From assembly GCA_963810935.1 (NCBI GenBank), contig CAWEPK010000017.1, positions 1 to 64,000 on the forward strand: a stretch of 64,000 bases of DNA, given 5' to 3'. Source of the DNA: an uncultured delta proteobacterium (GTDB taxonomy: Bacteria; Desulfobacterota; Syntrophorhabdia; Syntrophorhabdales; WCHB1-27). Under the pieces are notes generated by a model that was not told the DNA's origin, did no database searches, and saw only the letters and a list, made by a program, of their open reading frames with translations. Shown here piece after piece: positions 5,889 through 57,194 of this stretch (its first letter is position 1; each line of letters opens with the position of its first letter). The translations under genes were made by a program, and so were the position numbers.

Positions 5889-5968
5889 AAAGCAAGCGAA
5901 TGCGCCGCGCCGAGGGGGGTGGCTCCATGCTGCTTTGCCGCTGGAGGGGGCGCTGAGCCCCAATAATG
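5889..5968 (+). repeat. Dispersed ~80-bp hairpin repeat (family B), copy 1
   Basis: AAAGCAAGCG...GGGGTGGCTCC-stem-CTTTGC-stem-GGAGGGGG.GCTGAGCCCCAATAATG; homologous to 28161-28303 and 57013-57114. Confidence 0.85.
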
Positions 5969-16685: not shown

Positions 16686-16759
16686 TGGCTGGGGGATCAG
16701 GGCTCGAACCTGAATAGCGGGCTCCAAAGGCCCGTGTCCTACCATTAGACGATCCCCCA
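16686..16759 (-). tRNA. tRNA-Gln (anticodon TTG)
   Basis: Minus strand reads TGGGGGATCGTCTAATGGTAGGACACGGGCCTTTGGAGCCCGCTATTCAGGTTCGAGCCCTGATCCCCCAGCCA: cloverleaf, GTTCGA T-loop, encoded CCA. Promoter TTGACG-N17-TAATAT lies upstream. Confidence 0.95.
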
Positions 16760-16872: not shown

Positions 16873-16990
16873 GCCTGCTGCGGTGTCGCGCTATGCGGCG
16901 AAATACTCGCCTTGCGCCCTCCGACGTACCTGGATACGCCTCCGGTCGGCAAGGCTCCCATTTCATTCACATATCGCAACCCCTTGAGGC
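16873..16990 (-). repeat. Long palindromic REP-like repeat, subfamily A2
   Basis: Minus strand TATGTGAATGAAATGGGAGCCTTGCCGACCGGAGGCGTATCCAGGTACGTCGGAGG aligns with 55462-55584. Confidence 0.7.
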
Positions 16991-17283
16991 GCTCCTCCGG
17001 CCGCGACCGCCGCAATCGAATAAAGAGCATTATTAGGCGGCGGTAAGAGCGGGTTGTACCGTAGACATAATTGGGATACTACGGAGATCAATACCGGGGG
17101 TAAGATGTAATATGTCGGAGAAGGGGCCGGGAGATTTTGGGTGGAATTCGCGTTGCTTTCCGAGGAAGCGAGCCGGAGTCTCTATGCTATAAAAGCCCTC
17201 TTCCACAGGGGCGGATAAAAAGGCTACCCTCTTTCTCTTAAGCGATGGATGCACATCGCAAACCAAGGAAAGGGAGGTAGCCA

Positions 17284-18360
17284 ATGGAGATTCATAGGGT
17301 ACAGGATTTTGTGGTTGAAGGTAAAGAGGTTTTTATCGGTTTGGAAGACTCAAAGAAGACCTGGAAGATAGCAGTTCGGTGTGACAGGATGGTGATCCAC
17401 CAGGTATCCATGGAGGCAAAGTATGTCTTGCTGAAGCAATACCTGAGAAACAGGTTCCCCGGTTGCACGGTCCATTTGATGTACGAAGCAGGCTTCAAGG
17501 GGTTCAACCTTCACGATCTTCTTGCCGAAGACGGCATCGACTGCGTGGTGATCCCTCCCCATATGGTGACGGAGCCGAAGGCAAACAAGGTTAAGACCGA
17601 TAAAAGGGATGCAAACCGTCTCGCCCGCATCCTGGAGAGCCACGATTACAGGGACCCCTGCTGTGTACCCGACAAAGAGAGGAGGGAGGACCGGCAGGTA
17701 AGCCGTACCATAATCGCCATACAGAAGGATATCATCGGTAACCGCAACCGCATCCGCAAGCTCCTCGACTTTCACGGGATCGAGGTCCCCTTTGCCGGTA
17801 AGAGCGAATGGGGGCGAAAGGAGTTCGAGGGTCTTCGGACATTACCCCTGAGCGATCCCTTAAGGGCAGCTCTGGGCTCGCTTTTGACCATACTGGAGGA
17901 ACTGTGGGGCCAGCGTGCGGTCTTGAGGGACTATCTCCGGGGTCTGTGCAAGAAGGAGCGTTATAGAAAGCCCTACGAGGTCGCAAAGAGCATCCCCGGC
18001 ATAGGGTGGTTCACAGCCATCCGCCTGATATTAGAGCTGGGGGAGGATCTCTCCCGTTTCGGAAGCGGGAAGAAGATCGCAGGCTTCGTGGGGTTGGGCT
18101 GCAGCGAGCATTCGACGGGCCAGACCGAACGGAAAGGTCGTATCACGGGCATGGGGTCGGGGTTCATACGGCATATCCTGGTCGAGAATGCCTGGATAGC
18201 GATCAGAAAGGACCCGGCCCTGCTGTCCAAGTTCTCACGGGTATGGCGGTCGAGCGGCAGCAAGAAGAAAGCCATAGTGGCAGTTGCCCGTACTCTTATT
18301 GTGCGCCTTCGGGCCTGCATGCTTTCGGGCAGGCCTTATACGGTCGGAGTTATTAGATAG
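17284..18360 (+). CDS. IS110-family DEDD transposase / RNA-guided recombinase
   Basis: IGLED, YEAG and KTDKRDA (RuvC-like DEDD); SIPGIG, RF..GK...GFVGL...SEHSTG and KKAIVAVAR (Tnp20 domain); SD GGAGG. Confidence 0.95.
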   Translation: MEIHRVQDFVVEGKEVFIGLEDSKKTWKIAVRCDRMVIHQVSMEAKYVLLKQYLRNRFPGCTVHLMYEAGFKGFNLHDLLAEDGIDCVVIPPHMVTEPKANKVKTDKRDANRLARILESHDYRDPCCVPDKERREDRQVSRTIIAIQKDIIGNRNRIRKLLDFHGIEVPFAGKSEWGRKEFEGLRTLPLSDPLRAALGSLLTILEELWGQRAVLRDYLRGLCKKERYRKPYEVAKSIPGIGWFTAIRLILELGEDLSRFGSGKKIAGFVGLGCSEHSTGQTERKGRITGMGSGFIRHILVENAWIAIRKDPALLSKFSRVWRSSGSKKKAIVAVARTLIVRLRACMLSGRPYTVGVIR

Positions 18361-18363
18361 GAT

Positions 18364-18536
18364 GAGCCTGACGGAAGAGGACCTTAACAGAACAAGGGCG
18401 TACAACGCCACGTACGCTGTATTAAAGAACGGCCCGGAGTATGTTGACGCCCGTTCCTCTTTTTTCGAAAAGCAGACACATGTGGGTTGGACCACGAATA
18501 GCAGCTTGCAAAGAACCTCCTCTTCAAGAAAGGCTC
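18364..18536 (+). ncRNA. Putative bridge/seek RNA of the IS110 element
   Basis: Nested stems 18364-69/18531-36 and 18374-81/18518-25 enclose two stem-internal loop-hairpin modules. Their loops match target (ACGTACGCT, CCGGAG) and donor (ATAGCAG) sequences. Confidence 0.75.
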
Positions 18537-18816
18537 GCGCTTCGGCCGCGGACCTGTGTAAGGTCGTCGGCCTCGCGCTCGCTATCGGATATGTACTCAC
18601 TAATAACAGAGGGAAAGTCATGGACTGACCCATAAAGAAAAGGGGGTAGCAAAAGCCCGCTGGAAGAATCCGTTGACTTTTATCATAGCAGCATACGTAT
18701 TCTGTATGTGAGGACTCGCGACTGAGGAAACGACGCGAAGGCCGCCAAAAGATCCCGGCCCCCACCCCATATTGCAAATTCAGGGGAAAAAGCACACAAT
18801 ACGGCAGGAGGGCGTT

Positions 18817-19020
18817 ATGTCTGAGACTATTGTGAAAATAGAAGGAATGAGCTGCCAGCATTGCGTAATGCGCGTGAAAAAGGCCGTCGAGGCCCTGCCC
18901 GGCGTATCGAAGGCGGACGTGGCCATCGGCACAGCCAACGTCACGTACGACGACGCGAAGGTCAAAGAAAAGGACCTCGAACAGGCAATCGAAAACGTGG
19001 GATTTACGATAAAGAAGTAA
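18817..19020 (+). CDS. CopZ-like heavy-metal chaperone
   Basis: GMSCQHC HMA motif; SD AGGAGG. Confidence 0.9.
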   Translation: MSETIVKIEGMSCQHCVMRVKKAVEALPGVSKADVAIGTANVTYDDAKVKEKDLEQAIENVGFTIKK

Positions 19021-19123
19021 GCCGCGCCCCGTCGTCAAGGTGGGCACGGCCCGGGAGCCGCTTGAAGACCTGCGGCCTCCTGGTTCGCTTTATGCAAGGG
19101 TAAAGCCGGATAAGGAGGCGTAA

Positions 19124-22286: not shown

Positions 22287-22415
22287 CGGGGCCGGGAGAT
22301 TTTCGATGGATTTCGCGTTGCTTTCCGACGAAGCGAACCGCAGCATACGTATTGTATACGTGAGGATTCGCGCCCGAGAAAACGACGCGAAGGCCGCGAA
22401 AAGATCCCGGCCCCG
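22287..22415 (+). repeat. 129-bp palindromic REP-like repeat (family A), intact
   Basis: CGGGGCCGGGA...TCCCGGCCCCG arms; central CCGCAGCATACGTATTGTATACGTGAGGA. Confidence 0.92.
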
Positions 22416-22482: not shown

Positions 22483-22932
22483 ATGACCAGGGTGGTTAGT
22501 ATTTTGGGCGGGGAAAAGGAACTTGGTAGGAAAATCCAAAACCCTATCGATTTTGACTCGCTCATAAGAAAAGGCATGCCTCCGGCTGCGCTTTATCATG
22601 TAAAAGAGACGTTCGATCTTTCTGATGAGACGATGGCGAACATTATAGGCGTGAGCCTGCGCACCGTCGCCAGGCGGCGGGCCGCGTCGAACAAGCGGCA
22701 TAAGCCGGCAGCCAGGCTGTCGCCTGTCGAGAGCGACAGGCTCTATCGCTTCGCAAGGATACTTGCTCTTGCGGAAGACGTATTCGAAAGTAGGGAAGAC
22801 GCGATTGAGTGGCTCAACAGCGGGCAATACGGGCTGGGCGGCGCCGTACCGATCAAGATGCTTCAGACGGACGCAGGCTCCCGCGAGGTCGAGGAGCTGC
22901 TTATCCGCATAGAGTACGGTGTTATTTCTTGA
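22483..22932 (+). CDS. Xre/MbcA/ParS antitoxin
   Basis: HTH region, LSP.ESDRLYRFARI..LA..VF, WL......LGG..P...L.T..G..EV..LL.RIEYG. Confidence 0.92.
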   Translation: MTRVVSILGGEKELGRKIQNPIDFDSLIRKGMPPAALYHVKETFDLSDETMANIIGVSLRTVARRRAASNKRHKPAARLSPVESDRLYRFARILALAEDVFESREDAIEWLNSGQYGLGGAVPIKMLQTDAGSREVEELLIRIEYGVIS

Positions 22933-23399
22933 CGGTCGCGTGGCGGCTGGTCAAGAAGAAACACGCGGCCGAGGCCCTCTCGGGAGAGGGCGCGCGCCTC
23001 GGCGGCGGCCGCTGGAATGAGGTGGGGATACCCGTCGTCTACGCTAGCGGGACGCTCTCCCTCGCGGTCCTTGAGTTGATTGTCCATTTTACAAGAAGAG
23101 ACATCAAGATCGCTAAATCGCTCGTTGCAGTGCCTGTCGAGATTCCGGATTCCGTATCGCAATTGGAGATTGGGCTGAAGGACTTGAAACCAGGGTGGGA
23201 CACATCGCCCCCGCCCGATTTTACGAGGGCCCTCGGGACGGAATGGGTGCGCGATGGCAAATCGGCCGTGCTCCGCGTACCTTCCGCGGTCGTTCAAAAC
23301 GAATACAATTTCGTCATCAATCCGAAGCACCGGGACTTTGCCAAAATCACCACCGGCGACGCCCGGCTGTTTTCCCTCGACGAACGGGTCTGGAAATAG
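22929..23399 (+). CDS. RES-domain toxin (NAD+ phosphorylase family)
   Basis: WRL, SGEGA...GGRWN, VYAS..LSLAVLE, LRVPSAVV..E.N..INP.H; TTG start overlaps the antitoxin stop. Confidence 0.92.
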   Translation: MTVAWRLVKKKHAAEALSGEGARLGGGRWNEVGIPVVYASGTLSLAVLELIVHFTRRDIKIAKSLVAVPVEIPDSVSQLEIGLKDLKPGWDTSPPPDFTRALGTEWVRDGKSAVLRVPSAVVQNEYNFVINPKHRDFAKITTGDARLFSLDERVWK

Positions 23400-24534: not shown

Positions 24535-24663
24535 CGGGGCCGGGAGATTTTCGATGGATTTCGCGTTATTTTTCGAAGGCGAGAGCCGGAGCGTACAGTT
24601 TGTGTACGTGAGGACTCGCGCCGAGAAAAACGACGCGAAGGCCGCGAAAAGATCCCGGCCCCG
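24535..24663 (+). repeat. 129-bp palindromic REP-like repeat (family A), intact
   Basis: Near-identical arms to the 22287 copy; central GCCGGAGCGTACAGTTTGTGTACGTGAGGA. Confidence 0.92.
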
Positions 24664-28160: not shown

Positions 28161-28303
28161 AAAGCAAGCGCAGCGCAGCGCCGAGCGGGGAGGCTCCGCG
28201 AGCTTTGCTCGTGGAGGGGGTGCTGAACCCCAGTAATTGCCCGCGCCGAGCGGGGTGGCTCCGGCGGCTTTGCCGACGGAGGGGGCGATGAGCCCCAATA
28301 ATG
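28161..28303 (+). repeat. Family B repeat, two tandem copies (28161-28237, 28239-28303)
   Basis: Hairpins CTCCGCGAGC-TTT-GCTCGTGGAG and CTCCGGCGGC-TTT-GCCGACGGAG. Confidence 0.85.
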
Positions 28304-56930: not shown

Positions 56931-57012
56931 ATTTATATATTCCAGCACAAGGGCGTACGCATGCAAGCTACTTCTATTCTTCGTTAACAAAAGCTTGCAA
57001 AAGAGGGGGCTA

Positions 57013-57114
57013 TCATTGGGCTTCAGCAGCCCCTCCACGGGCAAAGCCGCGGAGCCACCCCGCTCGCGCGGCGCATACGCTTGCTTTGGGCAATCATTGG
57101 GGTTCAGCACCCCC
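57013..57114 (-). repeat. Family B repeat, one full and one partial copy
   Basis: Minus strand GGGGGTGCTGAACCCCAATGATT, then AAAGCAAGCGTATGCGCCGCGCGAGCGGGGTGGCTCCGCGGCTTTGCCCGTGGAGGGGCTGCTGAAGCCCAATGA. Confidence 0.85.
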
Positions 57115-57194
57115 GCTGCGACCCTTCCCTCCTCACGTCGGGCGGGCACCCCGGCTTCCTTGCTGCCGCCCCGAAATGTGTCCCGGCCTGCCGG

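What the first reader, a model, noticed from the sequence alone, without database searches (positions are those of the whole stretch)
17123..18762. IS110 element inserted at the conserved centre of a palindromic repeat, with empty sites nearby
Removing 17179-18691 restores GCGAGCCGG-AG-CATACGTATTCTGTATGTGAGGA within a family A repeat. Intact copies have AACCGC-AG-CATACGT (core 22342-43) and AGCCGG-AG-CGTACAG (core 24590-91). Only the 2-nt AG core is duplicated. The empty copies each deviate from the predicted guide (1 left plus 1 right mismatch; 2 distal right mismatches), which gives a natural specificity series. Targeting a multicopy intergenic repeat would provide many harmless landing sites (inference).
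Basis: seen in the sequence. Interest (0 to 1): 0.8.

Follow-up and report, generated by a model that had tools for sequence, protein, structure and literature searches.

The report
RNA-guided jumping gene in hairpin repeats
A jumping gene of the RNA-guided IS110 family sits in a common hairpin repeat because its guide RNA spells out a short motif in that repeat, a known habit; its other copies sit in a second repeat family and in a gene, so the nearby empty repeats do not show how specific it is.

Summary
The insertion is real: a 1,513-bp IS110-family element (17179-18691) splits a ~125-bp palindromic repeat (family A, 82 loci) at an AG core, and a congeneric genome has the repeat intact at the same locus. 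Its 3' end holds a two-loop bridge RNA; target and donor guides covary with their DNA sites across relatives. The element reads a ~12-nt motif, CCGG-AG-(G)-CRTACG, shared by both families. The 'specificity series' is unsupported: four perfect-match A copies are empty, as are six sharing the occupied site's 13-mer. Repeat targeting by IS110s is known (IS621, ISPpu10, ISPa11), and this scan noted similar cases in other genomes. Smaller extras: one guide is used in two registers (an extra base beside the core in 2 of 4 sites; again in one relative); related guides hit these repeats at about seven positions; non-AG cores occur only at the right junction (11 of 76 against 0 of 78), fitting top-strand-only integration.

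The parts
17123..17176 (+). left half of the interrupted family A palindromic repeat (ends in the right-target half CCGG)
17177..17178 (+). core AG at the left junction (CT on the other strand, as in IS621); inferred to come from the donor circle
17179..18691 (+). IS110-family element, 1,513 bp (17177-18689 if the left core copy is counted inside, giving the 7+3 end extensions of IS1111 usage); 4 copies in the genome, 99.1-100% alike
17182..17192 (+). left subterminal inverted repeat (9 of 11 matches to the right one); holds the predicted -10 hexamer TATGCT (17183-17188) of the circle-junction promoter
   Evidence: sequence
17222..17282 (+). hairpin that hides the ribosome-binding site of the transposase; also formed by the two relatives folded
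   Evidence: z -3.75; relatives -5.3 and -2.9
17284..18360 (+). 358-aa IS110 recombinase: DEDD RuvC-like domain and C-terminal Tnp domain; Thr278 aligns with the catalytic Ser of IS621/ISCro4
   Evidence: Pfam PF01548 and PF02371, NCBIfam NF033542 173.6 bits over cut-off 140
18390..18456 (+). bridge RNA target-binding loop; guides at 18408-18418 (pairs with the flank right of the core) and 18432-18439 (matches the flank left of the core)
18459..18515 (+). bridge RNA donor-binding loop; guides at 18472-18480 and 18498-18504 match the joined element ends (left guide 5 of its last 7 nt, right guide 7 of 7)
18673..18688 (+). predicted -35 hexamer TTGACT (18673-18678), 17 nt from the -10 once the ends are joined, and right subterminal inverted repeat (18678-18688)
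   Evidence: sequence
18690..18691 (+). core AG at the right junction; inferred to be the target's own core
18692..18762 (+). right half of the interrupted family A repeat
22288..22414 (+). intact family A copy, core 22342-43, 2 inner mismatches to the guide
24536..24661 (+). intact family A copy, core 24590-91, 2 inner mismatches
   Evidence: 18991-19110 in IS-excised coordinates; inverted pair I1
16911..17007 (-). intact family B repeat with the extra-G form of the target motif; absent at this locus in G002

Best explanation
An autonomous IS110-family element of IS1111-type layout. Shown from sequence and comparison: recombinase gene, two-loop bridge RNA in the 3' end, guides that match the target (CCGG-AG-CGTACG) and the joined ends, a sigma-70-type promoter that forms only when the ends are joined. 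Inferred from IS621, ISEc11 and CazIS110-1: the element is copied out as a circle, the junction promoter drives recombinase and RNA, the RNA pairs with both strands around the core, and the strand reading CT is cut after the core and exchanged. The guide is tuned to a mini-hairpin module shared by two abundant intergenic palindrome families, so most good sites in the genome are repeats; selection is by the ~12-nt motif with tolerance for a mismatch or one extra base next to the core, not by family A as such. Empty copies are simply not yet hit.
For: Four copies with identical ends, all at CCGG-AG-(G)-CRTACG in three unrelated contexts. Guide against own flank: 5.58 of 9 (22 elements) and 3.74 of 6 (17 elements) versus 2.28 and 1.48 against other elements' flanks; none of 100,000 permutations reached it, also after dropping 4 elements with similar guides. 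RNA fold over 27 guide sets: 32 pairs, 9 with compensatory changes, 97.3% of cells paired, 0 of 500 shuffles. The variable base of the right donor guide follows the element end (C, G or T) in the rows. Module present in 62 of 82 A and 17 of 21 B copies. 27 of 31 near-perfect unshifted sites are in A. Empty orthologue in G002. Relative in G004 with a changed guide (GTATG for GTACG) sits mostly at CATAC copies.
Against: No RNA, circle or activity was observed: no RNA run listed and no circle joint in the contigs laid. The window's own site has a mismatch two bases from the core, and the left donor guide has a mismatch to the element's own end. For 2 related elements (L014, L024) the guide does not match the flank at any register tried. 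Related elements are not independent, so the permutation p overstates. Two of four copies carry frameshifts, real or assembly errors.
Confidence: 0.88

Rival explanations
1. One reading: the element is specific for family A, and the mismatched neighbours are empty because the guide rejects them.
For: Most near-perfect sites are in family A; the G004 relative lies at the family A core wherever both flanks can be read; both window neighbours carry two inner mismatches.
Against: 3 of 4 copies are outside family A; 4 of 4 perfect A copies and 22 of 23 one-mismatch copies are empty; with 4 insertions there is no power to rank sites.
Confidence: 0.06
2. Sequence-plus-structure recognition: the target hairpin that includes the left-target half adds specificity, as reported for ISPpu10, so repeats are chosen for their fold as well as their motif.
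For: In 3 of 4 sites the CRTAC half is the stem of a hairpin lying 5' of the core on the CT strand, the geometry described for ISPpu10 (10.64898/2026.03.19.712850, sections 7 and 8 read); the gene site can form a 3-bp stem.
Against: Motif abundance alone predicts it: 24 of 33 sites with perfect CCGG, at most one mismatch on the other side and an optional G are in A or B, against 3 of 4 observed. Relatives such as L004, L005, L006 and L042 use flanks that do not fold better than shuffles (z 0.0 to 0.9).
Confidence: 0.3
3. The extra G at two sites is not guide flexibility but an assembly error or a base gained during insertion.
For: The C5 and C7 copies carry other single-base indels, so local sequence quality may be poor; the empty alleles of these two loci were not seen.
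Against: The extra G is the usual form of intact family B copies in G000 and G002; in the PC4-like gene three bases are needed there to keep the frame shared with 20 homologues; a second guide is used in two registers in other data (L132, L133).
Confidence: 0.1

Closest known systems
IS621 of E. coli and its bridge RNA (Durrant et al. 2024, PMC11208160, sections 9 and 12 and passages read; Hiraizumi et al. 2024, PMC11208158, passages read)
   Same: DEDD recombinase with both Pfam domains; target loop then donor loop, each a simple internal loop; CT core (on the minus strand here); junction promoter; insertion into a repetitive palindrome; tolerance of a natural mismatch. Durrant et al. also remark that some off-target sites tolerate insertions in the target.
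   Different: RNA lies downstream of the gene; left target guide is 9 nt rather than 7; Thr in place of the catalytic Ser and GLED in place of the usual first-acid motif; only distant protein similarity (profile E 3e-10, single sequence no hit); an extra base beside the core occurs at natural sites.
IS1111-group elements ISEc11, ISPa11, ISKpn4 (Siddiquee et al. 2024, PMC11187229, section 6 and passages read)
   Same: Long non-coding region 3' of the gene, top-strand-complementary guide first, subterminal inverted repeats, 7+3 end extensions, (S)TG motif, junction promoter, natural reprogramming among relatives.
   Different: Inverted repeats are imperfect (9 of 11); protein is 358 aa, above the 330-350 given for the group; a full donor-binding loop is evident; phylogenetic placement not tested.
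ISPpu9, ISPpu10, ISPa11, ISRm19 as REP occupants (Tobes and Pareja 2006, PMC1525189, abstract and first part of the discussion read; Na et al. preprint 10.64898/2026.03.19.712850, abstract and sections 7, 8, 11 read)
   Same: IS110 elements placed at a fixed base of an abundant intergenic palindrome, with a target hairpin next to the core.
   Different: Here one guide serves two repeat families and a gene; in ISPpu10 the guide position next to the core tolerated no mismatch, whereas here 2 of 4 sites carry an extra base there; the repeats are ~125-bp long palindromes with no linked Y1 transposase found.
CazIS110-1 (Sun et al. preprint 10.1101/2025.10.25.684509, abstract and sections 5, 7 read)
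   Same: Reported top-strand-dominant integration predicts the junction asymmetry seen here (donor core left, target core right).
   Different: That work is biochemical on one element; here the evidence is only a genomic footprint across a clade, and relationship of the two proteins was not tested.

Membership tests
IS110 family (bridge-RNA recombinases) | [quoted passage not shown] | tested here: met
   PF01548 E 1.6e-9, PF02371 E 6e-18; NF033542 above cut-off
IS110 family (bridge-RNA recombinases) | catalytic acidic tetrad and C-terminal Ser/Thr-Gly nucleophile | tested here: met
   E21/D22, E68 invariant, D106, D109 nearly so, Thr or Ser at 278 in 25 of 25 rows; T278 aligns with the SG of IS621 and ISCro4. 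Which of E21 and D22 is catalytic is open.
IS110 family (bridge-RNA recombinases) | structured non-coding RNA with target guides that covary with the insertion site | tested here: met
IS110 family (bridge-RNA recombinases) | donor guides matching the joined ends | tested here: met
   right donor guide follows the end base; left donor guide follows the first three bases of the element in most rows (read by eye, no permutation test)
IS110 family (bridge-RNA recombinases) | short shared core, no true target duplication, no terminal inverted repeats | tested here: met
IS110 family (bridge-RNA recombinases) | circular intermediate and expressed RNA | not testable with these tools
   only DNA contigs were available; no circle joint listed; junction promoter predicted
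IS1111 group | long non-coding region downstream of the gene | tested here: met
   105 bp upstream against 331 bp downstream
IS1111 group | top-strand-complementary guide precedes the bottom-strand one | tested here: met
   against the order stated in PMC11187229
IS1111 group | near-perfect 11-13 bp subterminal inverted repeats with 7 and 3 bp extensions | tested here: inconclusive
   9 of 11 matches; 7+3 spacing holds only if the repeat is started at ATG/CAT, where 7 of 9 match (sequence; rule)
IS1111 group | transposase falls in the IS1111 clade, 330-350 aa | not tested
   358 aa; no reference IS1111 proteins were available; tree holds only close relatives
REP elements maintained by a RAYT (family A/B repeats) | repeats flank a Y1 tyrosine transposase | tested here: not met
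   7 Y1 loci share their own ends and lie at least 2.2 kb from any A or B copy; genome is 93% complete
MITE (family A repeats) | target-site duplication outside terminal inverted repeats | tested here: not met
   no 4-9 bp direct repeat outside the outer stem in 68 copies tested; 2-bp in 3, 3-bp in 5

The most novel reading that the evidence does not exclude
This clade of bridge recombinases lets the left target guide slip by one base relative to the core, so a single guide covers two repeat families that differ by one base there; the slip is favoured when the extra base repeats the guide's core-facing base (C here, T in L133). Related guides have been repeatedly re-aimed at new positions and orientations within the same two repeat families, and only the exchanged top strand is fixed in the genome. 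Together this would be a natural record of register tolerance and strand use that sets limits on bridge-editing specificity.
Probability: 0.35. Interest if true: 0.55.

Novelty: new member of a known kind. Interest (0 to 1): 0.3.

Why it matters
The core finding repeats a known theme: IS110 elements use guide RNAs to home into repetitive palindromes. Its use is as a clean natural data set for a distant clade (Thr nucleophile, downstream RNA): many reprogrammed guides with their sites, a same-guide register shift that predicts a class of off-targets for bridge editors, and a junction asymmetry that bears on the open question of dual-strand versus top-strand integration. Each is testable with a simple plasmid assay.

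Tried and rejected
Rfam: no family over the element; only a tRNA at 16689-16759 and a sub-threshold match. Linear promoter scan of 17000-18900: none, as expected for a junction promoter. Single-sequence search of solved structures: 0 hits; the profile found ISCro4 and IS621. Sequencing runs: no RNA holder listed; no evidence either way. Laid contigs: a joint skipping 1,513 bases in 3 of 4 runs cannot be told from intact paralogous repeats, so it is not counted as an empty allele; no circle joint was listed; the runs may include the source sample. Orthologue of the C17:104567 site in G001-G003: not found, only paralogous B copies, so whether that site lacked the G before insertion is open. RAYT and MITE readings of the repeats: not met. 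Between-element register shifts (16 of 42 well-matched sites, 3 elements) were set aside because guide-loop length varies and my anchor can be off by one; only same-guide comparisons are used. Handshake-guide positions were inspected by eye in the output and gave no consistent pattern. The junction promoter in relatives is partly circular, since right ends were located by the -35 motif. Literature searches for a bulge or extra target base and for this taxon listed no paper devoted to either; only the remark in PMC11208160 section 9 bears on it; bioRxiv supplements and figures were not seen and may hold more.

Full report
Observation. The window carries a 358-aa IS110 recombinase gene at 17284-18360 (Pfam PF01548 and PF02371; NCBIfam NF033542 above its cut-off). 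AG stands at 17177-78 and 18690-91, and removing 17179-18691 restores a palindromic repeat in register with the copies at 22288 and 24536. The repeat folds with z -6.2 and has 82 loci in the genome by nhmmer (family A); a crude ORF call puts 10 of 82 inside ORFs, against 82% ORF coverage. A congeneric genome, G002, has an intact A copy and no element at the orthologous locus between the tRNA and the copZ-like gene; G001 has a palindrome with the same outer arms and other inner arms there. The core lies about 8 nt from the symmetry axis, at the foot of the central mini-hairpin. The closest transposases lie in records titled Syntrophorhabdus, Syntrophorhabdales or delta proteobacterium.

The genome holds four copies, 99.1-100% alike, with the same ends. 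Only the window copy is in family A. Two (C17:104567, C7:15880) are in a different repeat, family B (21 loci), and one (C5:83380) splits a PC4-family gene (PF02229, E 1.2e-7) next to an integrase fragment. All four share CCGG-AG-(G)-CRTACG. Contigs of public runs show the element joined to family B flanks in two runs (these may include the source sample). Families A and B share a central module around this motif (62 of 82 and 17 of 21 copies).

Bridge RNA. The 331-bp 3' end folds with z -3.1. Across 27 distinct guide sets from related elements it gives two stem-closed internal loops: 32 pairs, 9 with compensatory changes, 97.3% of cells paired, 0 of 500 shuffles (relatedness inflates this). 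The first loop holds guides at 18408-18418 and 18432-18439 that spell GCCCGG-AG-CGTACGTGG. Guides match their own flanks at 5.58 of 9 (22 elements) and 3.74 of 6 (17 elements), against 2.28 and 1.48 for other elements' flanks; no permutation of 100,000 reached this, also after dropping four elements with similar guides (duplicates and L069 left out; L014 and L024 do not fit). The second loop matches the joined ends, and joining them builds TTGACT-17-TATGCT. Read on the minus strand the core is CT and the loop order is that of IS621; read with the gene, the guide order is that given for IS1111 elements (PMC11187229). Rfam has no match.

Specificity series. Of 31 genomic sites within one mismatch of the guide's inner 13 nt, 27 are in A, 1 in B, 3 elsewhere, while A and B are 0.30% of the genome: the guide is aimed at the repeats. 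But 4 of 82 A copies match perfectly and all are empty; 23 have one mismatch and one is occupied; 7 share the occupied 13-mer and 6 are empty. The two neighbours are two of 21 two-mismatch copies. Four insertions cannot rank sites, so the series is not supported. 'Harmless landing' fits 3 of 4 copies; the fourth breaks a gene of which the genome keeps a second homologue.

Relatives. A 75%-identical element has 9 copies in G004; the left junction is readable in 8 and the right in 6, all at the same AG, and 6 score as family A; its guide reads GTATG and 5 of its 6 right flanks begin CATAC. Eight of the 27 guide sets (one weak, E 4e-4) fall inside A or B, at about seven positions and in both orientations (18 of 55 flank sets); five of them form a supported branch in a quick tree (SH-aLRT 96; the careful search did not finish). 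In 68 distinct metagenome loci, 5 of 56 flank sets lie in B and none in A. Many relatives use other palindromes or unfolded sequence. Repeat targeting is thus common but not obligatory in the clade.

Register shift. Two of four sites have an extra G between core and the left-target half: 7 and 6 of 7 matches when shifted by one, 0 of 7 unshifted. The G is the usual form of family B and is needed for the frame of the PC4-like gene, so it is unlikely to be an error. L132 and L133 (98% alike, same guide) also use registers 0 and +1. In both cases the extra base equals the guide base that faces the core, so the guide can stay paired and slide (inference). Chance matches of this quality were 0 of 1,712 and 2 of 3,496. 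Against this: only two guide sets show it, and Durrant et al. already noted tolerance of target insertions. Unexplained: 19 of 20 PC4 homologues have Gly where the restored site reads Arg, so the base may have changed before or after insertion.

Junction asymmetry. The left junction reads AG in 33 of 33 and 45 of 45 loci; the right junction reads otherwise in 5 of 32 and 6 of 44 (Fisher p 0.024 and 0.012; loci are not independent). Both were placed at fixed offsets from conserved end motifs, not by the AG. So the AG is a shared core, one copy from the donor, one from the target. This is what fixation of the exchanged top strand predicts (IS621 cuts after the core; CazIS110-1 integrates mainly by the top strand). 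Selection on the left core is a rival reading.

Comparison and verdict. Membership of the IS110 family is met on every feature testable here; the IS1111 group is likely but inconclusive (imperfect inverted repeats, 358 aa, no phylogeny). Targeting of repetitive palindromes is established for IS621, ISPa11, ISPpu9 and ISPpu10, and four earlier notes of this scan describe like cases in other genomes (unchecked AI notes, not support). The repeats themselves show no RAYT link and no target duplication; their origin is open.

Noticed in passing
window 17222-17282: A conserved hairpin in the left end pairs with the ribosome-binding site of the transposase and would keep translation low.
   Followed up: partly
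window 18532-18584: A further hairpin after the donor loop is conserved in many relatives but folds only weakly alone (z -1.9); role unknown.
   Followed up: partly
G000 C8 near 467700 (family A) and C7 near 258100 in IS-excised coordinates (family B): Two repeat copies lack exactly the core bases (2 and 3 nt) at the target site; slippage or an excision footprint.
   Followed up: no
L069 (G004:C2:1-2487): An element with the ends and flank of the G004 element but another transposase (54%) and a guide that does not match its site; hitch-hiking hybrid or assembly chimera.
   Followed up: no
window 16884-17122: The family B copy and about 110 further bases left of the interrupted repeat are absent in G002, so family B copies are gained or lost between close species.
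   Followed up: partly
window 17123-18762 against L095 and L096: Orthologous family A copies keep the outer arms but differ in inner arms by whole subtype, suggesting conversion among copies; many A copies carry extra nested hairpins.
   Followed up: no
window 5908-5967, 28178-28302, 57012-57121: A third dispersed repeat family in the window.
   Followed up: no
G000 C3, C5, C7, C8, C12, C16: Seven loci of one IS200-type Y1 element with shared hairpin ends, unrelated to families A and B.
   Followed up: partly
window 22483-23399: An Xre/MbcA-type antitoxin gene followed by a probable RES-type partner, directly after an intact family A copy.
   Followed up: no
L016-L021, L013, L026-L030: More distant relatives sit in other hairpin repeats; one has six copies at the same GG core of one motif.
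   Followed up: partly
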